Below, piece after piece: positions 2,253 to 32,000 of a DNA stretch of 32,000 nucleotides (positions within the stretch are counted from its first letter, which is position 1; every line of letters starts with the position of its first letter). A model generated the notes under the pieces. The model searched no databases. It was given only the letters and a program-made list of their open reading frames with translations, and was not told where the DNA came from. The DNA lies in contig NZ_BCZP01000003.1 of NCBI RefSeq assembly GCF_001598795.1, positions 210,001 through 242,000 on the forward strand, in the 5' to 3' direction. Both the position numbers and the translations under genes were made by a program. This stretch comes from Delftia acidovorans NBRC 14950 (GTDB lineage Bacteria; Pseudomonadota; Gammaproteobacteria; Burkholderiales; Burkholderiaceae_C).

Positions 2253-2861
2253 ATGCAGGCTTTGCTCAAATTCTCAAGGGGGGTCGACTGGCTCAACAGC
2301 CTGGTCGGGCGATGGCTTATCTGGCTGATCCTGGCCTCCACGGTCATCAGCGGCATCAATGCCATCGTGCGCAAGGTGTTGCACACCAGCTCGAACGCCT
2401 ACCTCGAAGTGCAGTGGTACCTGTTCGCGGCCTCTTTCCTGCTGGCCGCCGGCTACACGCTGCTGCAGGGCGAGCATGTGAAGGTGGATGTGATCGCCAG
2501 CCGCCTGTCCAAGCGCACGCAGATCTGGATCGACATCTTCGGCTTCGTCTTCTTCCTGACCCCCATGGCGCTGGCCATCCTGTGGTTCGGCACGCCCTTC
2601 GTGATCCAGGCCATGCAGACCGGCGAGATGTCGGGCAACGCAGGCGGCCTGGTGCGCTGGCCCGTCTACCTGATGATCCCCATCGGCTTCGGGCTGCTGC
2701 TGCTGCAGGGCATGTCGGAGCTGATCAAGCGCATCGCTTTCCTGAAGGGCCTGATCGACGATCCCACGGCCAAGAAGGGCGAGAAGACCGCCGAGGAAGA
2801 CCTGGCCGACGCCCTGCGCGGGCTGGCAGGTGCCAAGGACAAAAGCGGGCAAAGCGCCTGA
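2253..2861 (+). CDS. TRAP transporter small permease (DctQ-like), with a hydrophilic C-terminal tail
   Basis: Four hydrophobic helices and typical size. Directly precedes the large permease (17-nt gap). Start at the ATG at 2253 after GGAGA; the track ORF starts at 2163. Confidence 0.85.
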   Translation: MQALLKFSRGVDWLNSLVGRWLIWLILASTVISGINAIVRKVLHTSSNAYLEVQWYLFAASFLLAAGYTLLQGEHVKVDVIASRLSKRTQIWIDIFGFVFFLTPMALAILWFGTPFVIQAMQTGEMSGNAGGLVRWPVYLMIPIGFGLLLLQGMSELIKRIAFLKGLIDDPTAKKGEKTAEEDLADALRGLAGAKDKSGQSA

Positions 2862-2878
2862 TCGGGGAAACAGACATC

Positions 2879-4708
2879 ATGGAATTCGTAATCCACAACC
2901 TGGCCCCGATCATGTTCGCGGGGCTGATACTTTTCCTGCTCGTGGGTTTTCCCGTGGCATTCAGCCTGGGCGCCTGCGGCCTGTTCTTCGCCTTTGTCGG
3001 CATCGAACTGGGCGTGCTGCCCGAAGCCCTGCTGCAGGCCCTTCCGCTGCGCATCTTCGGCATCATGCAGAACGAGACGATGCTGGCCATACCGTTCTTC
3101 ACCCTCATGGGGCTGATACTGGAGCGAAGCGGCATGGCCGAGGACCTGCTGGAGACCGTGGGCCAGCTCTTCGGCCCCGTGCGCGGCGGCGTGGCCTTTG
3201 CGGTGATCTTCGTCGGTGCGCTGCTGGCGGCGACCACGGGCGTGGTCGCGGCATCGGTGATCTCCATGGGCCTGATCTCCCTGCCCATCATGATGCGCTA
3301 CGGCTATGACCGCCGGGTGGCCTCGGGCGTGATCGCGGCCTCCGGCACGCTGGCGCAGATCATTCCGCCATCCCTGGTGCTGATCGTGCTGGCCGACCAG
3401 CTGGGCCGCAGCGTGGGCGACATGTACAAGGGCGCCTTCCTGCCGGGCCTGATGCTGACGGGCTGCTATGCGCTGTTCATCGTCGTGCTGGCCATCTTCA
3501 AGCCCGCCATGGTGCCCGCCCTGCCGCCCGAGGCGCGCACGCTGCGCGAGCCCAATGGCAATTCCGGCCTGCCTTCCACCCTGGTGCTGACGCTGCTGTG
3601 CGTGGCCGCCTCCATCGTGGTGGGACAGTACATGCCCCAGCTGCACACCTGGTGGTCCGGCGAGGTGGTGGAGAAGGTCGCTCTGGACGAGACCATCGTG
3701 GTGTCCATGTGCTTCGGCGTGGCCCTGGCCTTCATCGCCGCCATGTTCAACAAGCTCACGGGCCTGCACCTGCTCAGCCGCATGGCCGAGCGCGTGACCT
3801 TCGTGCTGATCCCGCCGCTGCTGCTGATCTTCCTGGTGCTGGGCACCATCTTCCTGGGCGTTGCAACCCCCACCGAAGGCGGCGCCATGGGCGCGCTGGG
3901 CGCGGCCATCATGGCCTTCGCTCGCGGCCGCCTGAACATGGACCTGCTCAAGCAGGCGCTGATGTCCACCACCAAGCTGTCGTGCTTCGTGATGTTCATC
4001 CTGATCGGCGCGACCATGTTCGGCCTGACCTTCCAGGGCGTGGACGGCCCCAAGTGGGTGGAGGAACTGCTGGTGTCCCTGCCCGGCGGCGAGATCGGCT
4101 TCCTGATCGTGGTCAACATCATGATCTTCGTGCTGGCCTTCTTCCTGGACTTCTTCGAGCTGTCCTTCATCGTCGTGCCGCTGCTGGCCCCCGTGGCCGA
4201 CAAGCTGGGCATCGACCTGGTCTGGTTCGGCGTGCTGCTGGCCGTGAACATGCAGACCTCGTTCATGCACCCGCCCTTCGGCTTCGCGCTGTTCTTCCTG
4301 CGCAGCGTGGCCCCCGCCAAGGCCTACGTGGACAAGGTCACCAAGAAGATGACCGAGCCCGTGACCACCATGCAGATCTATGCAGGTGCCATTCCCTTCG
4401 TGGTGCTGCAGCTGTTCATGGTGGCCCTGATCATCATCTTCCCCGGCATCGTCTCCAGCGGGCTGGACAAGAAGGTGGAGTACGACCTGGACAAGGTGCG
4501 CCAGGAGATGGAGGCATCCATGCCCGAGGCCATCGACTTCAACGACCCCATGTTCAACGGCGACGGCGCGAACCAGTCGCCTGCCCCCGGAGCAACGCCT
4601 GGCGAGCCTTCGGCCCCGGGCAGCGAGGACGATGCACTCAAGGCGCTGCAGGACCAGTTGCAGCGCGAGCAACCGGCCACGCCGGGCGAGAGCAAGTCCG
4701 GCAGCTGA
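2879..4708 (+). CDS. TRAP transporter large permease (DctM-like), long form of 609 aa
   Basis: Poly-topic membrane protein beginning MEFVIHNLAPIMFAGLILFLLVGFPVAFSLG. DctM-like blocks include IPFFTLMG, GGVAFAVIFVGALLAATTG, GTLAQIIPPS and FMHPPFGFALFFL. The in-frame part of the track ORF upstream (2312-2878) overlaps the small permease and is not coding. Confidence 0.9.
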   Translation: MEFVIHNLAPIMFAGLILFLLVGFPVAFSLGACGLFFAFVGIELGVLPEALLQALPLRIFGIMQNETMLAIPFFTLMGLILERSGMAEDLLETVGQLFGPVRGGVAFAVIFVGALLAATTGVVAASVISMGLISLPIMMRYGYDRRVASGVIAASGTLAQIIPPSLVLIVLADQLGRSVGDMYKGAFLPGLMLTGCYALFIVVLAIFKPAMVPALPPEARTLREPNGNSGLPSTLVLTLLCVAASIVVGQYMPQLHTWWSGEVVEKVALDETIVVSMCFGVALAFIAAMFNKLTGLHLLSRMAERVTFVLIPPLLLIFLVLGTIFLGVATPTEGGAMGALGAAIMAFARGRLNMDLLKQALMSTTKLSCFVMFILIGATMFGLTFQGVDGPKWVEELLVSLPGGEIGFLIVVNIMIFVLAFFLDFFELSFIVVPLLAPVADKLGIDLVWFGVLLAVNMQTSFMHPPFGFALFFLRSVAPAKAYVDKVTKKMTEPVTTMQIYAGAIPFVVLQLFMVALIIIFPGIVSSGLDKKVEYDLDKVRQEMEASMPEAIDFNDPMFNGDGANQSPAPGATPGEPSAPGSEDDALKALQDQLQREQPATPGESKSGS

Positions 4709-4854: not shown

Positions 4855-5934
4855 TCACAGCTTTTGCGCCGACATGAAGGCGTCGTAGCGCGCCTCGGCA
4901 AAGCGGAACCACAGCACCTCGTCGCGCTGGAAGTTGCGGTAGTCGCCGTAGATCTTCTTCCACGCAGGATTTTTCTCGGCCAGCTCCGCATAGACCGCCA
5001 TGGTGGTCTTGTAGGAAGCATCGAGCACGGTCTGCGGGAAGGCCAGCACCTTGGCCTTGCTGGCCACCAGTTGCTTGAGCGCGCCGGGATTGCGCGCGTC
5101 GTAGCGGGCCTGGGTGACCACATGGGCCTCGTGCGAGGCGGCCTGCACCATGGCGCGCTGCTCGGGCGTCAGCGCGGCCAGCGCCTTCTGGTTCACGTAG
5201 AACTCGAGGTTCAGGCTGCCTTCCCACCAGCCGGGGTAGTAGTAGAAAGGAGCGACCTTGTTGAATCCCAGCTTGAGGTCGTCATAGGGGCCGATCCATT
5301 CGGCCGCATCGATGGTGCCCTTTTCCAGCGCCTGGTAGATTTCGCCGCCCGGGATGTTCTGGGGCACGCCGCCCATGCGCTCGATGATCCGGCCCGCGAA
5401 GCCGCCGATGCGGAACTTCAGGCCCTTGATGTCCTCGGGTGTCTTCACCTCCTTGCGGAACCAGCCCCCCATCTGGGCGCCCGTGTTGCCGCCCAGGAAG
5501 TTGACGATGCCGTATTCGGCATAGAACTCGCGCATCAGCTTGCCGCCGTTGCCGTCCACGATCCACGCCGTGAGCTGGCGCGAGTTCATGCCGAACGGAA
5601 TGGCGCCGCCAATGGCGAAGGCCTCATTCTTGCCAAAGAAGTAGTAAGGCGCCGTGTGCGCGATCTCCACCGTGCCGTTCTGCACGCCATCGACCACGCC
5701 GAAGGCAGGCATCAGCTCGCCGGCCGCATGCACCGAGACCTCGAACTTGCCGCCCGACATCTCCTTGATCGCCTTGGAGAACACCTCGGCCGAGCCGTAG
5801 ATGGTGTCCAGCGAGCGCGGGAAGCTCGACGCCAGGCGCCAGCGTATTGCCGCCTGCGCGTGAACGGCCGGTGCCGCTGCGGCAGTCAACACACCGGCCA
5901 GACCGGCGTGCTTGAGTGCTTTTCTTCTGTCCAT
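4855..5934 (-). CDS. TRAP transporter substrate-binding protein (DctP superfamily), Tat-type signal peptide; paralogue 1
   Basis: Starts MDRRKALKHAGLAGVLTAAAAPAVHA|Q (twin-arginine motif, AxA cleavage site). Conserved WRLASSFP..LDT, GGWFRKE and PYYYYPGWWEG-like blocks typical of TRAP periplasmic components. AGGAGGA upstream of the ATG at 5934. Confidence 0.9.
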   Translation of the reverse strand: MDRRKALKHAGLAGVLTAAAAPAVHAQAAIRWRLASSFPRSLDTIYGSAEVFSKAIKEMSGGKFEVSVHAAGELMPAFGVVDGVQNGTVEIAHTAPYYFFGKNEAFAIGGAIPFGMNSRQLTAWIVDGNGGKLMREFYAEYGIVNFLGGNTGAQMGGWFRKEVKTPEDIKGLKFRIGGFAGRIIERMGGVPQNIPGGEIYQALEKGTIDAAEWIGPYDDLKLGFNKVAPFYYYPGWWEGSLNLEFYVNQKALAALTPEQRAMVQAASHEAHVVTQARYDARNPGALKQLVASKAKVLAFPQTVLDASYKTTMAVYAELAEKNPAWKKIYGDYRNFQRDEVLWFRFAEARYDAFMSAQKL

Positions 5935-5972
5935 CACTGTCTCCTCCTGGTTCGCTCTGCTTGAGAGCATTC

Positions 5973-6216: not shown

Positions 6217-7299
6217 TTACAGCTTGGCCGTGGTCATGTAGCTGTTGTAGCGGAACTCCGAGAAGCGCTCCCACAGCAGCTGGTCGCGCTGGAAGGTGCG
6301 CAGGCTCTGGTTGATCTTCTTGAACATGGGCGACTTGGCGTCATGCTCGGCCATGATCTCCATGACGGCCTTGTAGCCGGCGTCCATGAAGTCCTTGGGG
6401 AAGGCCTTGAGCTGGGTCTTGTCGGCCACCAGCTTCTTGAGCGCCACGGGGTTGTTGGCGTCGTACTTGGCCGTCATGTCGCGTGCCGCCACGTTGCAGG
6501 CTGCATCGACCATGGCCTTGTACTCGGGCGACAGGGCCGCATACGCCTTGGTGTTGATGAAGAACTCCAGCTCGGCGCCGCCTTCCCACCAGCCGGGGTA
6601 GTAGTAGTAGGGAGCGACCTTGTTGAAGCCCAGCTTCTGGTCGTCGTAGGGGCCCACGAATTCCACGGCATCCAGCGTGCCCTTTTCAAGCGCCTGGTAG
6701 ACCTCGCCCACGGGCATGTTCTGGGCGACCACGCCAAGCTTGAGCATGGCGTCGCCGAACAGGCCGCCGCCCAGGCGCATCTTCAGGCCCTTGAGATCGG
6801 CCACCGACTTGATTTCCTTGCGGAACCAGCCGCCCATCTGGGTGCCCGTGTTGCCGGCGCTCTGGCTCTTGATGTTGTACTGAGCATAGAACTCGTCCAT
6901 GAGCTTGCGGCCGCCGCCGTGCTCCATCCAGGCATCCATCTGGCGGGCGGTCAGGCCGAAGGGCACGGCGCAGCCGAAGGCGAAGATGTAGTCCTTGCCG
7001 GTGAAGTAATAGGGCGCCGTCAGCGCCATCTCGATGGTGCCGTTCTGGATGCCGTCGACCACGCCGAAGGCGGGCATCAGCTCACCGGCCGCATGCACCG
7101 AGACTTCGAACTTGCCGCCCGACATCGCCTTCAGCGTCTTGGAGAACATTTCGGCCGAGCCGAAGATGGTGTCCAGCGACTTGGGAAAGCTCGCAGCCAG
7201 ACGCCAGCGGATCGCCTCCTGGGCATGGACTGCGGGTGCGGCTCCCACAGCCAGCACGCCAGCGATTCCCGCATGTTTGATGATCGAACGACGGTCCAT
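6217..7299 (-). CDS. TRAP transporter substrate-binding protein (DctP superfamily), Tat-type signal peptide; paralogue 2
   Basis: 360 aa, MDRRSIIKHAGIAGVLAVGAAPAVHA|Q. Collinear with paralogue 1 over its full length, roughly 60% identical by eye. Confidence 0.9.
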   Translation of the reverse strand: MDRRSIIKHAGIAGVLAVGAAPAVHAQEAIRWRLAASFPKSLDTIFGSAEMFSKTLKAMSGGKFEVSVHAAGELMPAFGVVDGIQNGTIEMALTAPYYFTGKDYIFAFGCAVPFGLTARQMDAWMEHGGGRKLMDEFYAQYNIKSQSAGNTGTQMGGWFRKEIKSVADLKGLKMRLGGGLFGDAMLKLGVVAQNMPVGEVYQALEKGTLDAVEFVGPYDDQKLGFNKVAPYYYYPGWWEGGAELEFFINTKAYAALSPEYKAMVDAACNVAARDMTAKYDANNPVALKKLVADKTQLKAFPKDFMDAGYKAVMEIMAEHDAKSPMFKKINQSLRTFQRDQLLWERFSEFRYNSYMTTAKL

Positions 7300-11168: not shown

Positions 11169-12311
11169 ATGTCTGATTTAAGTCTTCAACTGCAGCAGGC
11201 CGCAAGCCAACTACCAGTTTCCAGTTACTTCGACCCTGCGTTGTTCCAGCGCGAGTTGGAGACCATCTTTCAACGCGGCCCGCGCTACGTGGGCCACCAA
11301 CTGGCCGTTCCCGAGATAGGCGACTACTACGCCCTGCCCCAGGAAAAGGAAGGCCGCGCTCTGGTGCGCAATGCCAGGGGGCAGGTGGAGTTGATCTCCA
11401 ACGTCTGCCGCCACCGCCAGGCCGTGATGCTCAAGGGCCGGGGCAATCTGATGACCGAAGGCAAGGGCCATGCGGGGGGCAACATCGTCTGCCCGCTGCA
11501 CCGCTGGACCTACAGCACCAGCGGCGAGCTGCTGGGCGCACCGCACTTCAGCCACGATCCCTGCCTGAACCTGAACAACTACCGGCTGCGCGAGTGGAAC
11601 GGCCTGCTGTTCGAGGACAACGGCCGCGACATCGAGTCCGACCTGGCCGGCATGAAGCTGCGCGAGCAGCTGAGCTTCGAGGGCTTCGTGCTCGACCATG
11701 TCGAGATGCACGAGTGCAACTACAACTGGAAGACCTTCATCGAGGTCTACCTCGAGGACTACCACGTGGGCCCCTTCCACCCGGGCCTGGGCAACTTCGT
11801 GACCTGCGACGACCTGCAGTGGGAGTTTGCCAAGGAGTACTCGGTTCAGACCGTGGGCGTGGCGCCCGGCTTTGCCCAGCCCGGCTCGGACACCTACAGG
11901 AAGTGGCACGACGTGCTGCTGGCCTACCGCAACGGCGAGCTGCCCGAACGCGGCGCGATCTGGCTGACCTACTACCCGCACATCATGGTGGAGTGGTATC
12001 CGCACGTGCTCACGGTCTCGACCCTGCACCCGCTGGCGGTGGACCGGACGCTGAACGTGGTCGAGTTCTACTACCCCGAAGAGATCGCGGCCTTCGAGCC
12101 CGAATTCGTGCAGGCGCAAAAGGCCGCCTACATGGAGACCTGCATCGAGGACGACGAGATCGGCGAGCGCATGGACGCCGGCCGCAGGGCACTGTATGAG
12201 CGCGGCGACAACGAGGTCGGCCCCTACCAGAGCCCCATGGAAGACGGCATGCAGCACTTCCATGAGTGGTATCGCGGCGTGATGGGTGACGCAGCAGTCC
12301 CCGCACGCTGA
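11169..12311 (+). CDS. Rieske (2Fe-2S) non-heme iron oxygenase, alpha-subunit-like
   Basis: Rieske motif CRHRQAVM...(x)...CPLHRWTY and mononuclear-iron motif EVYLEDYHVGPFH (D-x2-H-x4-H). 380 aa. Confidence 0.88.
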   Translation: MSDLSLQLQQAASQLPVSSYFDPALFQRELETIFQRGPRYVGHQLAVPEIGDYYALPQEKEGRALVRNARGQVELISNVCRHRQAVMLKGRGNLMTEGKGHAGGNIVCPLHRWTYSTSGELLGAPHFSHDPCLNLNNYRLREWNGLLFEDNGRDIESDLAGMKLREQLSFEGFVLDHVEMHECNYNWKTFIEVYLEDYHVGPFHPGLGNFVTCDDLQWEFAKEYSVQTVGVAPGFAQPGSDTYRKWHDVLLAYRNGELPERGAIWLTYYPHIMVEWYPHVLTVSTLHPLAVDRTLNVVEFYYPEEIAAFEPEFVQAQKAAYMETCIEDDEIGERMDAGRRALYERGDNEVGPYQSPMEDGMQHFHEWYRGVMGDAAVPAR

Positions 12312-15807: not shown

Positions 15808-17916
15808 CTAGACCGTCCCGCCGCCTGCCCTGGCGGCGCAGTCCCTGGCGAACTGCGGCAGTTTCTCGCCCGGCAGGGCGCGGCTGAAGTACCAGCCCTG
15901 CACCAGCAGATCGCCCTCGAAGCCCAGGGCCTGCAACTGCGCCTCGGTCTCCACGCCCTCGGCCACCACATTCAGCTGCAGCGCCTCGCAAAAGCGCAGC
16001 AGGCCGTCCAGCACCAGCTCGCCCTTGGCATGGCCGCTGGCCACGACGAAGCTGCGGTCGATCTTGATGGCATCCACATCGAACTGGTGCAGGTAGCTCA
16101 TGGAAGAGAAGCCGGTGCCGAAGTCATCGATGGACACCTTGGCGCCCAGCGCATGGATCTGCCCTATGGCGCGGCGGATCGCCTCCACATCGCCCACCAT
16201 TTCTTCCTCCGTGATCTCCACGCCGACCTGCCCCCTGGCCTGGGCCAGCAGCAGCATCAGGCGCGAGCAGTACTCGGGCGAGGTCAACGTGGCACCCGAC
16301 ACATTGATGCTGATCGGCATGGCAAAGCCCTCCTGGCGCCAGTGCCGGCTCTGGCGCACAGCAGCGCCCGCCACCCACAGGTCCACCTCGCGCATCAGCC
16401 CCGCATCAGCCAGCCAGCGCAGGAAACTGCCGGGCTGCTGCAAGCGGCCCTGCGCGTCCCGCGCGCGCAGCAGGGCCTCGCAGCCCAGGCACAGGCCGCT
16501 GCGGTGCGAGACCTGGGGCTGGAATTCCAGGTGGAACTCGTACTCGCTGATGCGACGGATATGCGCCAGCATGGTCTCGCGCCGGGCCTGCGCCTGGTGC
16601 GCCTGCACCAGCGGATCGCGCACGATCAGCCCGGCCTCTTCGGGCAGGCGCGAGAACGTGGTGTCCAGCGCGTGCAGCACGATGGCACCGTCGTCCTGGC
16701 CCAGCCGGTCGATGGCCCGCACGTAGGGCGCATAGATCAGCGCTCCCAGGGCCGTCAATGCCAGTTGCAGCACCACGGCCGCCATGTCCCCGCCCGTGCT
16801 CACATAGGCATTGAAGACCACGGGCGCAGTCAGCGGCAGCACCATGGAGGCCGGTGCCACCCAGCCTGCCTGCACCACCGTGACGGCCACGACCAGGTTG
16901 ATGGCGGGTACCGCGAGAAACGGCACGAGCAGGCGCAGGTTCAGGATGATCGGCAGCCCGAACAGCAGGATCTCGTTGACGTTGAGCAAGGAGATGGGCA
17001 GCGCCGCCAGCGCCAGCACGCGCAGGCCCCGCCCCCGGCAAAACAGCAGCACGGCCAGCGCCAGCGACAGCGTTGCACCGGAGCCGCCGATGAAGACGAA
17101 GGAGCCCATCAGCCCGCCGCTGAGCGCCCAGGGCGCCTGCAGCCCCTGCGCCATCGCGGCGGCATTGGCCACCACCGCCTGGTCCAGCACCTGGAAGAAG
17201 GGTTGCATGGCGTAGTACCCCTGGACGCCGAAGAACCAGAGCACGGAATTGAGCAGTGCCAGCGTCAGCCCGCTGCGGTAGGGGGTCTCTGGGCCCGCGA
17301 TGGCCAGCGGCAGTTCGGCCCGCGTGAGATCCGGCAGCACCTGTTGCAGGCCCAGCAGCAGCAGCACGAGCAGCACGGCAACAAGGGCGCCGGGAACGAC
17401 GAGGTTCATGACCTCGCGCACGTTCTCGCTCACGAAGCCGGTGCGCGCGATGCGCGTCCAGCGCAGCCGGCTCAGGCGCGCCATCAGGGGCACAGTGATC
17501 AGGGGGGAGGCGATGGAGATGAACAGCACCAGGGTGGCCGCCGCGCGCGGATGCTCGCTCAGCAGATAAATGGCCATCTGCACATGCGCGAAGCACAGAA
17601 AGGTCACCGGCAGGCGCGGCAGCCGGTGGCGTATGGAGAGCATGTAGCCGATGGACGCGGCCACCAGCAGCGGCAGGATGCTGCCGATCTCCGCGTGCAG
17701 GCCCGCAAGCACCCGCACCACGGGTTCGGGCTGGCCGGACATCTGCGCCAGCGCCGACAGGATGAGGAACAGGGCCGAGACCAGCAGACAGGGAACCAGC
17801 CAGAGCAGGCCCTCGCGTATGGCCCGCATGGAGTTGGCGCCGGCCAGCCTGGCCAGGCGCTGTGTCAGGAACAGTTGCACGTCCGGAAAGCCGGCCCGTG
17901 ACCTCTTGTTGCCCAT
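15808..17916 (-). CDS. Membrane protein with N-terminal PTS EIIC-like (lactose/cellobiose type) domain fused to a C-terminal EAL c-di-GMP phosphodiesterase domain
   Basis: N-terminal ~430 aa are polytopic, with EIIC type-3-like blocks WFFGVQGYY, FIGGSGATL and NVNEILLFGLPIILN (compare ChbC FFGIHG / GGSGATL / NEPxxFGLPIV.NP). The C-terminal part carries the complete EAL catalytic set: EALLR, ISINVS, VEITEE, IDDFGTGFSSMSYL, IKIDRSF, AEGVET, QGWYFSRA. Start taken at the ATG at 17916; the track ORF starts at 17970. Confidence 0.85.
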   Translation of the reverse strand: MGNKRSRAGFPDVQLFLTQRLARLAGANSMRAIREGLLWLVPCLLVSALFLILSALAQMSGQPEPVVRVLAGLHAEIGSILPLLVAASIGYMLSIRHRLPRLPVTFLCFAHVQMAIYLLSEHPRAAATLVLFISIASPLITVPLMARLSRLRWTRIARTGFVSENVREVMNLVVPGALVAVLLVLLLLGLQQVLPDLTRAELPLAIAGPETPYRSGLTLALLNSVLWFFGVQGYYAMQPFFQVLDQAVVANAAAMAQGLQAPWALSGGLMGSFVFIGGSGATLSLALAVLLFCRGRGLRVLALAALPISLLNVNEILLFGLPIILNLRLLVPFLAVPAINLVVAVTVVQAGWVAPASMVLPLTAPVVFNAYVSTGGDMAAVVLQLALTALGALIYAPYVRAIDRLGQDDGAIVLHALDTTFSRLPEEAGLIVRDPLVQAHQAQARRETMLAHIRRISEYEFHLEFQPQVSHRSGLCLGCEALLRARDAQGRLQQPGSFLRWLADAGLMREVDLWVAGAAVRQSRHWRQEGFAMPISINVSGATLTSPEYCSRLMLLLAQARGQVGVEITEEEMVGDVEAIRRAIGQIHALGAKVSIDDFGTGFSSMSYLHQFDVDAIKIDRSFVVASGHAKGELVLDGLLRFCEALQLNVVAEGVETEAQLQALGFEGDLLVQGWYFSRALPGEKLPQFARDCAARAGGGTV

Positions 17917-18018
17917 GGCTCCCACCCTTTTCTTCCCGGCAGAAGTCAGGCGCTCCTGTCCGGAGCACATCGTACAACGCCGGCCGCAAAGGGCTGTTGC
18001 GGCCTCCAGAGAGCAGGA

Positions 18019-27353: not shown

Positions 27354-27396
27354 ATCCGCATTCGCCGCAGTGCCTTTCAGGGCGCTGCCGCCCAAA

Positions 27397-27432
27397 GCCC
27401 GTGATCCGCAAGCCGGTCACGGGCTTTTTTTT
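27397..27432 (+). terminator. Rho-independent terminator of the cytochrome b561-yceI-yceI unit
   Basis: GCCCGTGA-(12-nt loop)-TCACGGGC followed by eight T. Confidence 0.8.
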
Positions 27433-27664
27433 GCCTTTTCTGAATTCCCGGAAAAGACCTTGCCAATGCCCTCCATTCGCACCCGCTCCACAGAGGAACA
27501 GCGGGCACATTGGCGGCCTTTGCAAATGCATCAAATTGATAGCGATTTCACGGTCATTGAGAAGTCGCAGCATAACGATTCCTCGATATCGATAGATACA
27601 AATAGACATACTCCAAAAAACTTACTTTAAATTTCATTTTCCGATCACTCCCTGGCATTCACCC
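27433..27664 (+). promoter_or_regulatory. AT-rich upstream region of the giant repeat-protein gene
   Basis: I counted 52 G+C in the 140 nt at 27521-27660 (about 37%), in a window that is otherwise about two-thirds G+C. Contains the palindrome TCGATATCGA (27583-27592). No clear Shine-Dalgarno before the ATG at 27665. Confidence 0.4.
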
Positions 27665-30600
27665 ATGAAGCAGATCTCCATTGCCCCCGCCGTTGTCGCC
27701 GCCATTGCCGCCCATTCATTCCCAATGGCCGCCAATGCCCAGAGCATCACGGTCGCTCCGGCTGCCGCCGTCGCGGCAACCGCGATTCCGGTGGACAACC
27801 CTTGGAGTCTGTTGGCCCTTGCCATAGGGCTGGCCATGGCCGCCTGGCTGGTGCTGCGCAACCGGCAGCACCGGGCGCTCTTCATGGCGCTGTGCACCAG
27901 CGCCATCGTGTGCGCCACGCTGTGGCACAGCCCCGATCTGCGTGCCCAATTGACGGGCAGCTTTACCAACCCGGCGGGCGAGACACGGCCATTGCTCGTT
28001 GCGCAAATTGTCAATGGCGGCAATATCAATGGATTTTCTGCAGAAGATTTCACCAATGATTCCGGTGTGGCACTGAAAATCACCGCCATTCAGCCACCGA
28101 ATTTGAATCAGTGTTTTCCCTCGGGCTTCACCCATCTCATGCCGCCAGGGGCACCGCCCGCATCGCCCCCGCCTCTTTGCGCCGTGGGCAACACCATTGC
28201 GCCCAATGGCACATGCCGGGTGAATGTGGAAACCATTTGCCGCGCCGAGGCAGCCCAGGCCACGGCCGGCGCCAGCCCCACCACGCTCAGCGTTCCCGGC
28301 GCCGGCCTGTCATTTGCCGCAGGCAGCACCGGCACGGTGAACGTCAGCAACAGCGGCGGCTCGGCAGCGCTCAATGTGCAGGCCACCATTCCCGCAGGCA
28401 GCGGCATCACCATCTCCTCCAACAGCTGCGCGGCAACACTGCCTGCGGGCTCCAGCTGCGCCATCACCCTGACGGCACCCGCAGCGGAAGGCCCGACCAC
28501 CGTCAGCATTGCCGGCAGCAACGCCGCAGCCACCACCACCCCGGTCACCGTGACAGGTGGCCCGGCCCCGACCACCACGCTGAGCATTCCCGCCACGCCG
28601 CTGTCGTTTGCGGCGGGCAGCACGGGATCGGTGACCATCACCAACAGCGGCGGCGCAAATGCGCTCAATGTGCAGGCCAGCATTCCTGCGGGCAGTGGCA
28701 TCACGGTGTCCAACACCACCTGCCCTGCCGCCCTGGCACCCTCTGCCAACTGCACGATCACGTTGACCGCCCCCTCGGCGGAAGGCCCGACCGCCATCGG
28801 CTTCGGCGGCAGCAATACGGCGTCCACTTCCGTGCCGGTCACGGTGTCGGCAACCGGCACGCCCACCACGCTGAACATTCCTGCGACGTCCGTGTCCTTC
28901 GGAGCGGGCGGCGCCGGCTCGGTGACCATCACCAACAGCGGCAGCGCACCTGCGCTCAATGTGCAGGCCGGCATTCCAGGGGGCAGTGGCATCACGGTGT
29001 CCAACACCACCTGCTCCGCCATCCTGGCTCCCTCGGCCAGCTGCACGATCACGCTGACAGCCCCCTCGGCGGAAGGCCCGACCCCCATCGGCTTCGGCGG
29101 CAGCAACACGGCTTCCACGTCCGTGCCCGTCACGGTGACGACTGCCGTCCTGCCCGCCACGCTGACCATTCCCTTGGCGTCCCTGTCCTTCGGAGCGAAC
29201 GGTGCTGGCTCGGTGACCATCACCAACAGCGGCAGCGCACCTGCGTTCAATGTGCAGGCCAGCATTCCGGCGGGCAGTGGCATCACGGTGTCCAACACCA
29301 CCTGCGCCGCCATCCTGGCTCCCTCGGCCAATTGCACGATCACGTTGACTGCCCCTTCGGCCGAGGGCCCGACCAACATCGGCTTCGGCGGCAGCAATGC
29401 GCCCGCCGCTACCGCACAGGTCACGGTCACCGCACCCGTCGCGCCAACCGCGCCTACCGTTCCCCCTGCACCCGTGCTGTTCGGCGCCTACGGCGCAGGC
29501 TCGGTGACCATCACCAACAACGGAACGGCGCCCGCGTTCAACCTGCGGGCCATCATTCCGGTCGGCAGCGGCATCATGGTGGCCTCCTCCACCTGCCCGG
29601 CGTCACTGCCGGTGGGCGCAAGCTGCACCATCACACTGACGGCGGCAGGACCGGAAGGCCCCACGAACATCAGCGTTGGCGGCAGCAACACGCCGGCCAC
29701 GGCCGTGCCTGTGACAGTGACTGTCCCCGTCACGCCGACTACGCTGAACATTCCCACCACCCCCGTCTCCTTCGGCACTGGCGGTGCAGGCTCGGTGACC
29801 ATCAACAACGGTGGAAGCGCACCCGCGTTCAACGTACAGGCCAACATTCCGGCCGGCAGCGGCATCACGGTGTCCAACTCCACCTGCGCCGCCATCCTGG
29901 CCCCCGCTGCCAGCTGCACGATCACGCTGACGGCCGCTGCGGCCGAAGGTCCGACCGCCATCAGCTTCGGCGGCAGCAACACGCCGGCCACGACCGTGCC
30001 GATCACGGTGACAGCCCCCGTCGCACCCACCACGCTGAACATTCCCACGACCCCCCTGTCGTTCGGCACCAGCGGCGCAGGCGCGATCACCATCGTCAAC
30101 AACGGAACTGCACCCGCGTTCAATGTGCAGGCCACCATTCCGGCCGGCAGCGGCATCGCGGTGTCCAACACCACCTGCCCCGCCATCCTGGCCCCCGCTG
30201 CCAGCTGCACGATCACGCTGACGGCCACTGCGGCCGAAGGTCCGACCGCCATCAGCTTCGGCGGCACCAACACACCGGCGACGACGGTGCAGGTCACGGT
30301 GACGGCCCCCGTCACGCCGACCACGCTGGACATTCCCGCCGCACCCGTGTCGTTTGGCACCAGCGGAGCGGGCACGGTGACCATCACCAACAACGGGTCC
30401 GCACCGGCGTTCAACGTGCAAGCCACCATTCCGGTCGGCAGCGGCATCACGGTGGCGTCCAGCACCTGCCCTATCTCCCTGCCCCCCGGGGCCGACTGCA
30501 CGATCACGCTGACGGCTGCGGCCGCAGAAGGCCCGACCGCGGTCAGCTTTGGCGGCAGCAACACGCCCACCACGACCGTGCAGGTCACGGTGACGGTGCC

Positions 30601-31855
30601 CGTTCCCACCGCCACGCTCTCGATACCCGGCGCTCCGCTGTCGTTCGCTGCGGGCGGTTCGACAACGGTCCTTATCAGCAACACCGGCGCTTCTGCGGCC
30701 TTCAACGTGACCGCCACGGCGCCGGCCGGTAGCGGAATCACCGTGCAGTCGAACACGTGCGGTGCCGCACTCGCCTCTCTGGCCAGCTGCGGCATCACCC
30801 TGACTGCGGCCGCCGCCGAAGGCCCCACGGCCATCAGCTTCGGCGGCAGCAATACGCTGGCCACGACCGTGCCGGTCACGGTGACGGCGCCCGTCACGCC
30901 GACCACGCTGGGTATGTCCACCACGCCCGTGTCGTTCAACACAGGGGCAACGGGCTGGGTGACCATCACCAACAACGGTGGGGCCCCTGCGCTCGACGTT
31001 CAGGCCACGATTCCGGTAGGCAGCAGCATCACGGTGTCGGCCAACACCTGTGGTTCATCGCTGGCAGCGGGGGCCAATTGCACGATCACGCTGACTGGAG
31101 CCACACCGGAAGGTCCGACGGCCATCAGCTTCGCTGGCAGCAATACCCCGGCAACGTCCGTGCAGTTCACCGTGACGGCGCCCAGCACCACGACCACGCT
31201 GGGGATCTCTGCACCAACTCTGACGATTGCTTCTGGCGGCACAGGCTCCGTGACCATCACCAACACGGGATCGAATGCCGCCACCGGCATCGGCGCCACC
31301 ATCCCCGGCGGCAGTGGGCTGTCCGTTTCCGGCAACACCTGCGGGCTGTCGCTGCCGGCCGGGGGGACCTGCACGGTGACCTTCACCGCAGGTGCGGACG
31401 AGGGGCCGACCAATGTCACCATCCAGGGCAGCAACACCGACACCGCAGCCTTGTCGATCACGGTCTCGGGTTCCATCGACATTGGCGCCTACCACCTCGA
31501 TGGCAGCTGTGGTGTGCTTGGCGTCCTTGGCCCCGGCTTCACCCTCACGGCAGGCTCTGCGCCGCTTCCCGTCGGCACCACGGTGACCATCACCGGTTCG
31601 GGAGTTGCCAACATCGGTGTGTTCAGTGTGACGGGAGGCACAGCCAGTGTGTCGGTGCTTTCCCCAACCTCCCGCCAGGTCACCCTGACCTCGGCACTGC
31701 CGGCAGGGGCCACGATCGCGTTCAGAACCACGCTGTCCATCAGCGTCGCCTTCACGCTGAATGGCTCGACGACGCTGCCCAACGGCTATGCGGGCACAGG
31801 CGGGAAGCCCGCTGGCAGCGTGAGTTCCACGCTCATTCTCTGCAGCGCCACCTGA
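27665..31855 (+). CDS. 1396-aa secreted/surface repeat protein: signal peptide, N-proximal IPTL-CTERM-like sorting signal, second TM helix, 11 tandem ~97-aa modules, unique 126-aa C-terminal domain
   Basis: Single uninterrupted ORF with strong in-frame periodicity. Signal peptide MKQISIAPAVVAAIAAHSFPMAANA|QS. Details are given in the sub-features and findings. The other long ORFs across this span (both strands) are repeat-driven artefacts. Confidence 0.85.
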   Translation: MKQISIAPAVVAAIAAHSFPMAANAQSITVAPAAAVAATAIPVDNPWSLLALAIGLAMAAWLVLRNRQHRALFMALCTSAIVCATLWHSPDLRAQLTGSFTNPAGETRPLLVAQIVNGGNINGFSAEDFTNDSGVALKITAIQPPNLNQCFPSGFTHLMPPGAPPASPPPLCAVGNTIAPNGTCRVNVETICRAEAAQATAGASPTTLSVPGAGLSFAAGSTGTVNVSNSGGSAALNVQATIPAGSGITISSNSCAATLPAGSSCAITLTAPAAEGPTTVSIAGSNAAATTTPVTVTGGPAPTTTLSIPATPLSFAAGSTGSVTITNSGGANALNVQASIPAGSGITVSNTTCPAALAPSANCTITLTAPSAEGPTAIGFGGSNTASTSVPVTVSATGTPTTLNIPATSVSFGAGGAGSVTITNSGSAPALNVQAGIPGGSGITVSNTTCSAILAPSASCTITLTAPSAEGPTPIGFGGSNTASTSVPVTVTTAVLPATLTIPLASLSFGANGAGSVTITNSGSAPAFNVQASIPAGSGITVSNTTCAAILAPSANCTITLTAPSAEGPTNIGFGGSNAPAATAQVTVTAPVAPTAPTVPPAPVLFGAYGAGSVTITNNGTAPAFNLRAIIPVGSGIMVASSTCPASLPVGASCTITLTAAGPEGPTNISVGGSNTPATAVPVTVTVPVTPTTLNIPTTPVSFGTGGAGSVTINNGGSAPAFNVQANIPAGSGITVSNSTCAAILAPAASCTITLTAAAAEGPTAISFGGSNTPATTVPITVTAPVAPTTLNIPTTPLSFGTSGAGAITIVNNGTAPAFNVQATIPAGSGIAVSNTTCPAILAPAASCTITLTATAAEGPTAISFGGTNTPATTVQVTVTAPVTPTTLDIPAAPVSFGTSGAGTVTITNNGSAPAFNVQATIPVGSGITVASSTCPISLPPGADCTITLTAAAAEGPTAVSFGGSNTPTTTVQVTVTVPVPTATLSIPGAPLSFAAGGSTTVLISNTGASAAFNVTATAPAGSGITVQSNTCGAALASLASCGITLTAAAAEGPTAISFGGSNTLATTVPVTVTAPVTPTTLGMSTTPVSFNTGATGWVTITNNGGAPALDVQATIPVGSSITVSANTCGSSLAAGANCTITLTGATPEGPTAISFAGSNTPATSVQFTVTAPSTTTTLGISAPTLTIASGGTGSVTITNTGSNAATGIGATIPGGSGLSVSGNTCGLSLPAGGTCTVTFTAGADEGPTNVTIQGSNTDTAALSITVSGSIDIGAYHLDGSCGVLGVLGPGFTLTAGSAPLPVGTTVTITGSGVANIGVFSVTGGTASVSVLSPTSRQVTLTSALPAGATIAFRTTLSISVAFTLNGSTTLPNGYAGTGGKPAGSVSSTLILCSAT
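27785..27874 (+). other. Internal exosortase-type sorting signal (IPTLxxWG-like motif + TM helix + basic cluster), residues 41-70
   Basis: IPVDNPW-SLLALAIGLAMAAWLVL-RNRQHR. It is immediately followed by a second hydrophobic helix, ALFMALCTSAIVCATLW (residues 71-87, to nt 27925). Confidence 0.6.
28286..31474 (+). repeat. 11 in-frame tandem repeats of ~291 bp (97 aa) inside the giant CDS
   Basis: Module consensus: L.IP..P(L/V)SFG..G.GSVTITN.G.APA(L/F)NVQA.IP.GSGITVSNTTC.A.LAP.A.CTITLTA.(A)AEGPT.I.FGGSNT.AT.V.VTVT.PV.PTT. The 45-nt string gccatcctggcccccgctgccagctgcacgatcacgctgacggcc is identical at 29891-29935 and 30182-30226, an offset of exactly 291. Confidence 0.95.
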
Positions 31856-31898
31856 TTGCAGGCGCTACGGCAATACCCGGAAACCTCAGCGTCGGCAA

Positions 31899-31927
31899 GG
31901 CGGGGCCTCGAAGGCCCCGCCTTTTTT
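31899..31927 (+). terminator. Rho-independent terminator of the giant gene
   Basis: GGCGGGGCC-TCGAA-GGCCCCGCC followed by TTTTTT, 43 nt after the stop codon. Confidence 0.85.
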
Positions 31928-32000
31928 CTGTCCATCCCGCACCACACCTGCCAGCCTGCGCACCCCTTGCTCGATGGCCTGCGGCTGCAGGCTCGCATAG

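What the first reader, a model, noticed from the sequence alone, without database searches (positions are those of the whole stretch)
27665..27925. Exosortase-type (IPTL-CTERM-like) sorting signal placed near the N-terminus of a 1396-aa protein instead of at its C-terminus
Seen in sequence: residues 1-25 form a standard Sec signal peptide with an ANA|Q cleavage site. After a 15-aa Ala/Val-rich spacer comes IPVDNPW + SLLALAIGLAMAAWLVL + RNRQHR (residues 41-70). That is the tripartite layout (short signature motif, TM helix, Arg-rich cluster) that defines PEP-CTERM/exosortase substrates, here in the IPTLxxWG flavour. Established knowledge: such signals normally sit at the extreme C-terminus, and the exosortase removes them while the protein body stays outside. 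Here the signal precedes more than 1300 residues of extracellular-type modules. It is directly followed by a second hydrophobic helix (ALFMALCTSAIVCATLW), which would return the chain to the periplasmic side. The true C-terminus (...STLILCSAT) has no anchor. Inference: cleavage at the motif would release only a ~15-aa N-terminal peptide, or transfer it to an acceptor, and would leave the body on a helical hairpin. That inverts the canonical logic. I recall that NCBI family curation includes a product name 'midcut-by-XrtH protein' for proteins with an internal IPTL-like signal. If this ORF belongs there, the architecture is catalogued but, to my knowledge, experimentally unexplored. No exosortase gene lies in this window; the right flank beyond 32000 is unseen.
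Basis: partly seen in the sequence, partly recalled or inferred. Interest (0 to 1): 0.8.

Follow-up and report, generated by a model that had tools for sequence, protein, structure and literature searches.

The report
Catalogued "midcut-by-XrtH" surface protein of Delftia
This gene encodes a large Delftia surface protein whose exosortase-type sorting signal sits near the start of the chain instead of the end; NCBI already catalogues this layout as "midcut-by-XrtH protein", but nobody has tested it experimentally.

Summary
ORF 27665-31855 (1396 aa) starts with a signal peptide (ANA|Q), then a 15-aa peptide, IPVDNPW, a 17-aa helix, RNRQHR and a second helix.

It scores 111 bits (cutoff 45) on NCBIfam NF033207 "midcut-by-XrtH protein". 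RefSeq gives that name to its Delftia acidovorans orthologue (WP_034391257.1). The finding is therefore real but already catalogued. No paper on it was found.

In 56 divergent relatives the cassette is conserved:
- Q26 56/56, P42 55/56, R65 44/56
- helix 1 always 17 residues
- cytoplasmic loop always net positive

New here:
- An A-x-A|Q-like site after helix 2 (A94 54/56), so the loop plus helix 2 resembles a second signal peptide.
- The gene lies on a 4.5-kb segment present in six and absent from two of the eight sister Delftia assemblies shown.
- Midcut genes are not linked to XrtH: 1 of about 17 loci, and 0 of about 110 XrtH loci.
- Trimmed at its Arg cluster, the motif scores 18.5 bits on IPTL-CTERM (cutoff 20.5), like a genuine tail encoded beside XrtH.

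Not testable here: whether Delftia has XrtH, and whether any cleavage occurs.

Interest is moderate. The short N-terminal fragment could reveal what an exosortase attaches to its substrates.

The parts
27394..27427 (+). Intrinsic terminator of the upstream yceI gene. It marks the left edge of the variable segment.
   Evidence: Stem-loop plus T-run. Homology with the Delftia assemblies that lack the gene stops at about 27430.
27431..31933 (+). A 4.5-kb presence/absence segment holding the upstream region, the midcut gene and its own terminator.
   Evidence: Present in L032-L036 and L039. Replaced by about 22 bp in L037 (CP065668.1) and L038.
27431..27664 (+). AT-rich upstream region, presumably holding the promoter.
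   Evidence: No sigma-70 consensus and no sigma-54 consensus was found. The function is inferred.
27665..27739 (+). Sec signal peptide 1 (residues 1-25), with predicted cleavage ANA|Q.
   Evidence: Sequence and hydropathy. In the family A25 is 50/56 and Q26 is 56/56.
27740..27784 (+). Short periplasmic N-terminal peptide (residues 26-40) with the conserved Q-S/T-I-T-T/V-x-P motif. It would be the fragment upstream of an XrtH cut.
   Evidence: I28 51/56, T29 40/56, P32 45/56. Family length 11-19, median 14. AF2 predicts a beta-strand at 27-32 for this protein but not for a distant member.
27785..27805 (+). Signature motif IPVDNPW (residues 41-47), a diverged IPTL-type exosortase motif.
   Evidence: Position 41 is aliphatic in 56/56, P42 55/56, V43 35/56, P46 36/56, W47 28/56 (L 12). 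As a trimmed 35-mer ending at the Arg cluster it scores 18.5 bits on TIGR04174.
27806..27856 (+). Transmembrane helix 1 (residues 48-64), running from outside to inside.
   Evidence: Hydropathy peak 2.49. Exactly 17 residues in all 56 homologues. AF2 helix 46-65.
27857..27874 (+). Basic cluster RNRQHR (residues 65-70), the cytoplasmic loop. It could double as the n-region of a second signal peptide.
   Evidence: R65 44/56. Loop net charge is +1 to +5 in all 56, median +3.
27875..27925 (+). Transmembrane helix 2 (residues 71-87), running from inside to outside and returning the chain to the periplasm.
   Evidence: Hydropathy 2.2. AF2 helix 70-87, and the hairpin is reproduced in a distant member.
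27926..27949 (+). HSPDLRA|Q (residues 88-95), a conserved A-x-A-like candidate signal-peptidase-I site after helix 2.
   Evidence: S89 23/56, P90 25/56, L/V92 49/56, A94 54/56, Q95 38/56. AF2 models it as a short helix. Cleavage is a hypothesis.
27950..28249 (+). Conserved globular beta-domain of the cassette (residues 96-195), with an FTNPxGET motif and four invariant Cys.
   Evidence: F100, N131, C150, C172, C184 and C192 are invariant in 39 sequences. AF2 pLDDT is 91-97 across most of residues 101-195. Foldseek found no PDB match for the 195-residue N-terminal model and phmmer found none for the full-length protein.
28250..31489 (+). Passenger: 11 tandem 97-aa Ig-like repeats (choice-of-anchor D / ASH type), each with one Cys pair.
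   Evidence: TRF period 291 bp, 10 copies. NF012200 scores 74.9 bits with 10 stretches, and PF15780 and PF18368 also hit. Repeat register and Cys pairs.
31490..31855 (+). C-terminal region of about 120 aa with no recognisable sorting signal, plus the stop codon.
   Evidence: No TM segment and no family hit.
31897..31923 (+). The gene's own intrinsic terminator, which makes it a monocistronic unit.
   Evidence: 12-bp stem with 9 GC pairs plus a T-run.

Best explanation
The ORF is the Delftia acidovorans-group orthologue of the NCBI-curated 'midcut-by-XrtH' family. It is an accessory, monocistronic gene for a large surface protein of the adhesin type. A portable N-terminal cassette of about 190 aa carries an exosortase-H-type sorting signal.

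Proposed working:
1. Signal peptide 1 takes the N-terminus across the inner membrane and is cut at ANA25|Q26. This is inferred from sequence; Q26 is invariant.
2. Helix 1 and helix 2 insert as a hairpin with the positive loop RNRQHR in the cytoplasm. Both the 15-aa N-terminal peptide and the whole 1300-aa body are then periplasmic. This is supported by the positive-inside rule, the conserved Cys pairs and AF2.
3. IPVDNPW, a 17-residue helix and a basic cluster now have the same geometry at the membrane as a canonical C-terminal IPTL-CTERM signal. Exosortase H recognises this and cuts at the motif, that is, in mid-chain. This step is inferred from homology and taxon-level co-occurrence and is not shown.
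4. The acyl side of the cut is only a short conserved peptide. The body is on the leaving-group side, so it cannot be anchored through its own C-terminus as canonical substrates are thought to be.
5. The body either stays tethered by the remaining hairpin or is released by a second cut after helix 2 (see rivals).
For: Family membership:
- NF033207 scores 111.1 bits against a cutoff of 45, over model positions 9-174 of 175.
- All 39 aligned relatives hit the same model.
- The orthologue cluster contains WP_034391257.1, 'midcut-by-XrtH protein [Delftia acidovorans]'.

Conservation in 56 sequences:
- Q26 56/56, P42 55/56, R65 44/56.
- Helix 1 is a constant 17 residues.
- The loop is always net positive.

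Homology of the motif region to genuine C-terminal tails:
- P0075 ends ...AVPVNNPWALLALAVGMTSLSAMLLRRRRAR and aligns to query residues 26-69.
- The relative P0076 passes TIGR04174 internally, 23.7 bits against 20.5.
- XrtH-adjacent true tails cross-hit midcut model positions 21-64. Our trimmed segment scores 18.5 bits, against 17.0 for the tail encoded 81 bp upstream of XrtH in L085.

Link to XrtH:
- A verified XrtH (TIGR04177, 181 bits) and XrtH_assoc lie 5.8 kb from a midcut gene on one contig.
- XrtH is named in Gilvimarinus, Ottowia, Halieaceae (Chromatocurvus) and Acidobacteriota, the same taxa that carry midcut genes.

Other support:
- AF2 gives a TM hairpin in two members.
- The cassette is under stronger constraint than the body among Delftia strains: 5 nonsynonymous to 18 synonymous changes, against 243 to 307.
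Against: - No XrtH was found or could be searched for in Delftia. There is none in the window or in the 5-9 kb beyond it seen in sister genomes.
- No gene linkage: XrtH lies within 10 kb of 1 of about 17 midcut loci, and there is no midcut module in about 110 XrtH loci covering 643 kb.
- The canonical IPTL-CTERM model is not passed here, and by only 3 of 39 relatives at E<=0.01.
- W47 is only 50% conserved.
- No experiment or publication exists.
- Even for canonical exosortase substrates the chemistry is unresolved (bioRxiv 10.1101/2023.06.07.544157).
Confidence: 0.6

Rival explanations
1. Two-site processing, or hairpin excision. XrtH cuts at IPVDNPW, and signal peptidase I also cuts after helix 2 at L-R-A94|Q95. 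In this reading the basic loop acts as the n-region, helix 2 as the h-region and HSPDLRA as the c-region of a second signal peptide. The body is freed from the inner membrane and the hairpin is discarded. This refines the best explanation on the fate of the body.
For: - A94 is 54/56, and position 92 is L/V/A/I in 55/56, which satisfies the (-3,-1) rule.
- S89/P90 act as a helix breaker.
- Q95 is 38/56, mirroring the invariant Q26 at +1 of the first site. This hints that both positions become N-termini.
- The loop is always positively charged.
- A 1300-aa rod of 11 Ig-like repeats is hard to reconcile with permanent inner-membrane tethering (inference).
Against: - The uncharged run up to A94 has a median of 20 residues, longer than typical h-regions.
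- AF2 models residues 90-97 as a short helix in both members, whereas signal peptidase needs an extended site.
- SignalP and DeepTMHMM could not be run.
- The SPxLRAQ conservation could equally reflect an interfacial helix.
Confidence: 0.3
2. An uncleaved two-helix membrane anchor. In this reading the IPTL-like motif is an evolutionary relic or a docking element, XrtH does not process the protein, and the body simply hangs from the hairpin.
For: - The motif has diverged from the canonical model.
- There is no genomic linkage to XrtH.
- XrtH is unverified in Delftia.
- The gene is dispensable, being absent from two of the eight sister assemblies shown.
Against: - A mere anchor does not explain several features: an upstream cleavable signal peptide with an invariant Q26, a near-invariant P42, a helix of exactly 17 residues in 56/56, or the resemblance to tails encoded next to XrtH.
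- The taxa carrying midcut genes also carry XrtH.
Confidence: 0.22
3. An annotation artefact. In this reading the true start is downstream, as in the 1209-aa gene calls in some assemblies, and the N-terminal 'signal' is untranslated or a chance resemblance.
For: Two sister assemblies call the gene as 1209 aa starting 187 codons later, and some records name it 'hypothetical' or 'beta strand repeat-containing protein'.
Against: - The upstream 187 codons are intact and in frame in those assemblies.
- They are conserved at protein level across phyla.
- They show 18 synonymous to 5 nonsynonymous changes among strains.
- The HMM E-value is 6e-32.
Confidence: 0.02

Closest known systems
NCBIfam NF033207 'midcut-by-XrtH protein' (e.g. 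WP_034391257.1 of Delftia acidovorans, WP_354441426.1 of Ottowia thiooxydans)
   Same: Full-length match at 111 bits. The protein falls in the same 90%-identity cluster as the RefSeq-named Delftia protein. The cassette order is identical in all relatives.
   Different: Nothing essential. The passenger differs between members: 11 choice-of-anchor D repeats here, TIG domains in Ottowia, and an Lcl-like C-terminus in L004. The family name states a mechanism that has not been tested.
IPTL-CTERM sorting domain / exosortase H system (TIGR04174 / TIGR04177, with XrtH-associated membrane protein NF041730)
   Same: The tripartite layout and spacing are identical. Compare LPTLSQW-SQLLLLILLAGFGMRAV-QRRKT (L026) with IPVDNPW-SLLALAIGLAMAAWLVL-RNRQHR. 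The two HMMs cross-hit each other's sequences.
   Different: The signal lies at residues 41-70 of 1396, not at the C-terminus. It is followed by a second helix and the whole body. It scores below the TIGR04174 cutoff. The motif flavour is (I/V)PV(D/N)xP(W/L) rather than IPTLxxWG.
PGF-CTERM / archaeosortase A of Haloferax volcanii and PEP-CTERM / XrtA
   Same: Same enzyme superfamily (Cys-Arg-His) and same signal logic. For ArtA, removal of the C-terminal helix is coupled to lipid attachment at the new C-terminus (as summarised in bioRxiv 10.1101/2023.06.07.544157).
   Different: In those systems the mature protein is upstream of the cut and receives the new anchor. Here the upstream piece is a peptide of about 15-20 aa and the mature protein is downstream.
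LPXTG / sortase A
   Same: An analogous tripartite signal and a Cys-based enzyme, with transpeptidation to an amine nucleophile (established knowledge).
   Different: Unrelated fold and a Gram-positive cell wall context. The signal is always C-terminal.
Choice-of-anchor D domain proteins (NF012200)
   Same: The passenger consists of this domain (74.9 bits, 10 stretches). From my own recollection, not tested here, the domain's name reflects that it occurs with alternative C-terminal sorting signals.
   Different: Here the 'anchor' is supplied by an N-terminal cassette instead of a C-terminal tail.

Membership tests
NCBIfam NF033207 midcut-by-XrtH protein | Whole-protein HMM score at or above the curated cutoff of 45 bits, covering the model | tested here: met
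   111.1 bits, E 6e-32, residues 9-188 matching model positions 9-174 of 175. The N-terminal 195 aa alone score 117.6 bits.
NCBIfam NF033207 midcut-by-XrtH protein | Cassette at the N-terminus behind a signal peptide, with an IPTL-like motif, TM helix, basic cluster and second helix | tested here: met
   Sequence, hydropathy and a 56-sequence alignment.
NCBIfam NF033207 midcut-by-XrtH protein | Exosortase H encoded in the same genome | not testable with these tools
   The source genome is not in the collections. Sister Delftia genomes are reachable only as 20-kb slices. Indirect evidence: both genes on one contig in L004, and XrtH named in Ottowia, Gilvimarinus, Halieaceae and Acidobacteriota.
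NCBIfam NF033207 midcut-by-XrtH protein | Actual mid-chain cleavage by XrtH | not testable with these tools
   No experimental literature found.
IPTL-CTERM sorting domain (TIGR04174) | HMM score at or above 20.5 bits | tested here: not met
   8.6 bits for residues 30-75. 18.5 bits, E 0.0019, for the 35-mer trimmed to end at the Arg cluster. The relative P0076 passes with 23.7 bits.
IPTL-CTERM sorting domain (TIGR04174) | [quoted passage not shown] | tested here: not met
   Residues 41-70 of 1396. The true C-terminus has no TM segment and no basic cluster.
IPTL-CTERM sorting domain (TIGR04174) | Signature motif, then a hydrophobic TM segment, then a cluster of basic residues | tested here: met
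   IPVDNPW, a 17-aa helix and RNRQHR, with the same spacing as the true tail in L026 and conserved in the family.
IPTL-CTERM sorting domain (TIGR04174) | Multiple occurrences of the signal in one genome | not testable with these tools
   The Delftia genome cannot be scanned. No canonical tail occurs in the roughly 45 kb of Delftia sequence held. One MAG carries two midcut paralogues (L002 and L005).
Sec signal peptide / signal peptidase I site (applied to loop + helix 2 + LRA|Q) | Positive n-region, hydrophobic h-region, and a c-region obeying the (-3,-1) rule | tested here: inconclusive
   n-region charge +1 to +5. -1 is Ala in 54/56. -3 is L/V/A/I in 55/56. However, the h-region is long (median uncharged run 20) and AF2 makes the site helical. 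No SignalP is available.
Choice-of-anchor D domain (NF012200) | HMM score at or above 45 bits | tested here: met
   74.9 bits with 10 stretches. There are 11 repeats of 97 aa.

The most novel reading that the evidence does not exclude
The cassette is an 'inside-out' anchor that is spliced out. In this reading XrtH cuts at IPVDNPW and signal peptidase I cuts at A94|Q95, which excises the TM hairpin. The short conserved N-terminal peptide (pyroGlu-SITVAP...) now carries whatever moiety XrtH installs on its new C-terminus. It stays attached to the body either as an added beta-strand of the 4-Cys domain or by XrtH-catalysed transpeptidation onto the new Q95 amine. An N-terminal cassette would then achieve what C-terminal sorting signals normally do.
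Probability: 0.1. Interest if true: 0.85.

Novelty: already known. Interest (0 to 1): 0.45.

Why it matters
For canonical exosortase substrates, the product of the reaction (hydrolysis versus transpeptidation, and what gets attached) is still unresolved. One reason is that the modified C-terminus sits on a large, probably glycosylated protein.

In midcut proteins the acyl-donor fragment would be a conserved peptide of about 15-20 residues, which is easy to follow by mass spectrometry. Delftia acidovorans is culturable, and natural strains with and without the gene exist at an otherwise identical locus.

The family therefore offers a clean handle on exosortase chemistry. It also tests whether a sorting signal can work from the 'wrong' end of a protein.

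In practical terms, some assemblies call the gene 187 codons short and lose the cassette, so the family is under-annotated.

Tried and rejected
- **Word-indexed homology search.** Searching with the N-terminal 190 aa and with the 39-sequence alignment found nothing. My guess is that Ala-rich words swamp the index. The exhaustive HMMER scan was needed.
- **Exact look-ups.** The ORF and the adjacent 201-aa YceI are not on record. FlhC and the 190-aa YceI worked and led to sister Delftia genomes.
- **The 222-aa gene call upstream of the midcut gene in L015.** I suspected it was XrtH. It has no family hit and its translation looks non-coding, so I rejected it.
- **The 221-aa membrane ORF next to P0075 in L023.** It is glycosyltransferase-like, not an exosortase.
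- **The recurrent neighbour in four midcut loci.** It is a generic SDR, so it is not meaningful.
- **N-terminal strand docking onto the 4-Cys domain.** It is predicted for the Delftia protein but not for a distant member. I kept it only as a weak lead.
- **Sigma-54 promoter upstream, by analogy with RpoN-dependent PEP-CTERM genes.** None was found.
- **Finding a Delftia XrtH with a GC-biased DNA probe.** The probe recovered about 110 XrtH loci, but none could be assigned to Delftia.
- **Shared synteny between betaproteobacterial XrtH loci and the Delftia region.** None was found.
- **The founding exosortase/archaeosortase paper (PMC3256604).** It is not held in the library.
Full report
**Observation.** ORF 27665-31855 on the + strand encodes 1396 aa.
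- a signal peptide ending ANA|Q (residues 1-25|26)
- an Ala/Val-rich 15-mer
- IPVDNPW (41-47)
- SLLALAIGLAMAAWLVL (48-64)
- RNRQHR (65-70)
- ALFMALCTSAIVCATLW (71-87)

Hydropathy shows three N-terminal peaks and no C-terminal one. Intrinsic terminators bracket the gene at 27394-27427 and 31897-31923, so it is monocistronic.

**Identity.** The protein scores 111.1 bits (cutoff 45, E 6e-32) on NCBIfam NF033207, 'midcut-by-XrtH protein', over nearly the whole model. The body is 11 tandem 97-aa Ig-like repeats of the choice-of-anchor D / ASH type. Each repeat has a Cys pair, and the body has almost no charged residues.

The rest of the window is housekeeping: dxs, ispA, flhDC, ppc, hemCDXY, cytochrome b561 and two yceI genes. 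There is no exosortase.

Exact look-ups of FlhC and YceI led to sister genomes with identical synteny. The orthologue cluster contains WP_034391257.1, which RefSeq names 'midcut-by-XrtH protein [Delftia acidovorans]'. The source is therefore a Delftia acidovorans-group chromosome, and the architecture is already catalogued. No paper on XrtH, midcut proteins, or exosortases in Delftia was found.

**Family anatomy.** An exhaustive HMMER scan of 1.84 billion representatives with the first 195 residues found only 75 clusters. The domain is N-terminal in nearly all of them. A 56-sequence alignment (39 sequences) shows a fixed order:
- signal peptide ending A|Q (A25 50/56, Q26 56/56)
- Q-S/T-I-T-T/V-x-P
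- a linker, so that the mature N-peptide is 11-19 aa
- (I/V)PV(D/N)xP(W/L), with P42 55/56
- a helix of exactly 17 residues in all 56
- a loop that is always net positive (R65 44/56)
- a second helix
- S-P-x-L-R-A-Q (L/V92 49/56, A94 54/56, Q95 38/56)
- FTNPxGET
- a beta-domain of about 100 aa with four invariant Cys

AlphaFold2 gives a TM hairpin, a short helix and a confident beta-domain, both for this protein (pLDDT 83.6) and for a 37%-identical member. Foldseek found no PDB match for the N-terminal model, and a PDB sequence search with the whole protein found none. Passengers differ between members (TIG, Lcl-like, choice-of-anchor D), so the cassette is portable.

**Is the motif really an exosortase-H signal?**

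Evidence for:
- One hit (P0075) is a 213-aa protein whose extreme C-terminus...AVPVNNPWALLALAVGMTSLSAMLLRRRRAR, aligns to residues 26-69.
- The 65%-identical relative P0076 passes the IPTL-CTERM model internally, 23.7 bits against 20.5.
- True tails encoded near verified XrtH genes (L068 37.7 bits, L026 23.4 bits) cross-hit positions 21-64 of the midcut model.
- Our segment, trimmed to end at its Arg cluster, scores 18.5 bits (E 0.002). A genuine tail, PIPVNSPL..., encoded 81 bp upstream of XrtH in L085 scores 17.0 bits.

Evidence against:
- In context our segment scores only 8.6 bits.
- Only 3 of 39 relatives reach E<=0.01 on TIGR04174.

The signal is therefore homologous to IPTL-CTERM but belongs to a diverged flavour.

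**Link to XrtH.**
- Of about 17 distinct midcut loci examined with flanks of up to 10 kb, only one has XrtH. In L004 it scores 181 bits on TIGR04177 and is followed by XrtH_assoc (NF041730), 5.8 kb from the midcut gene. That proximity is lineage-specific synteny.
- A codon-biased probe for the catalytic G-C-N-G-(I/V)-E-A motif recovered about 110 high-GC XrtH loci covering 643 kb. None contains a midcut module, and five have canonical tails.
- XrtH is much commoner than midcut, with 3,779 clusters at 90% identity.
- XrtH is named in Gilvimarinus, Ottowia, Halieaceae (Chromatocurvus) and Acidobacteriota, all taxa in which midcut genes occur.
- Whether Delftia has XrtH could not be tested. The sister genomes show none in the 5-9 kb to the right of the gene.

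**Population context.**
- Six of the eight sister assemblies shown carry the gene, at 97-99.5% nucleotide identity. Two (CP065668.1 and JBHSIH010000001.1) lack a 4.5-kb segment, window ~27431-31933. That segment comprises the upstream region, the gene and its terminator.
- Amino-acid differences among strains lie almost entirely in the repeats: 0-2 in residues 1-200 against 5-54 in residues 201-1250. Nonsynonymous to synonymous counts are 5:18 in the cassette and 243:307 in the rest.
- Two assemblies call the gene 187 codons short although the N-terminus is intact. Those records lose the cassette and the name.

**Mechanism.** The topology is well supported: a cleaved signal peptide, an out-in-out hairpin, a positive loop inside, and the body with its disulfide-forming Cys outside. 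The step that gives the family its name, an XrtH cut at the motif, rests on homology and taxon-level co-occurrence only. I rate it at about 0.6.

If it happens, the acyl side is a peptide of about 15-20 aa and the body is the leaving group.

The conservation there is stronger than in the motif itself, and Q at +1 mirrors the invariant Q26. The body may therefore be released rather than left on a hairpin (about 0.3). Against this, the hydrophobic run is long and AF2 makes the site helical.

AF2 also places residues 27-32 as a beta-strand, which can only pair with the 4-Cys domain. A distant member does not reproduce this, so it is a weak lead.

The main rival is an uncleaved anchor with a relic motif (about 0.22). 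An annotation artefact is excluded.

**Verdict.** It is already catalogued by NCBI, and the orthologue carries the name in RefSeq. It remains unpublished and untested. Its value is as a tractable substrate for working out exosortase chemistry.

Noticed in passing
window 15808-17970 (-): A 720-aa fusion of a PTS EIIC (lactose/cellobiose family) membrane domain to an EAL c-di-GMP phosphodiesterase, directly downstream of flhDC. It is conserved at this position in the sister Delftia genomes shown. A sugar-permease-like domain as the input to c-di-GMP turnover next to the flagellar master regulator is an unusual architecture.
   Followed up: partly
window ~27431-31933; L037 and L038 at ~11299-11322: The midcut gene is a clean 4.5-kb presence/absence polymorphism between yceI and a convergent GntR/aminotransferase gene. 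The segment begins right after the T-run of the yceI terminator and ends with its own terminator. No repeats or mobile-element genes were seen at the junctions.
   Followed up: yes
L034 and L036, 11533-15723 (called from 12094); P0205 = WP_239974226.1: Some Delftia assemblies call the gene as 1209 aa, starting 187 codons late although the upstream codons are intact. Those records are named 'hypothetical' or 'beta strand repeat-containing protein' and lose the sorting cassette. The family is therefore under-annotated.
   Followed up: yes
L085 3-1196 (+) and 1277-1798 (+); L020 3805-4446 (P0075): Genuine C-terminal tails of the (I/V)PVNxP(W/L) flavour exist. One is encoded 81 bp upstream of XrtH. 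They score below the TIGR04174 cutoff, or not at all, yet match the midcut model. The curated IPTL-CTERM model seems to miss a sub-flavour of XrtH substrates.
   Followed up: partly
L004 8044-9460; L024 8286-9708; L026 9695-11102: In Cellvibrionaceae and Gilvimarinus, XrtH sits in a conserved three-gene row: acylphosphatase, XrtH, then the XrtH-associated membrane protein, with overlapping or abutting reading frames. The acylphosphatase partner is unexplained.
   Followed up: partly
L015 9309-9977 and 15562-16332: The 222-aa gene called just upstream of the midcut gene looks non-coding (rich in Cys, His, Trp and Arg, with no family hit). That implies a roughly 700-bp upstream region. A PepA-like PEP-CTERM protein lies 4 kb downstream, so that organism uses more than one exosortase system.
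   Followed up: partly
window 28250-31489: Among Delftia strains the 97-aa repeats accumulate nearly as many nonsynonymous as synonymous differences (243 to 307). Many of the changes are swaps among Ser, Thr, Ala, Asn and Gly. This suggests relaxed or diversifying selection, or gene conversion between repeats.
   Followed up: partly
window 2312-4708 (+), 4855-5970 (-), 6217-7299 (-): A 798-aa TRAP transporter protein whose best match to the DctM large-permease model covers only residues 212-438, so it may be a fused permease. It lies next to two paralogous DctP-type solute-binding proteins.
   Followed up: no
(method): The word-indexed protein search returned nothing for this cassette, although a 79%-identical protein is in the same collection. 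Ala-rich signal and TM segments seem to swamp the word index. Negative results from that tool on such sequences are unreliable.
   Followed up: yes
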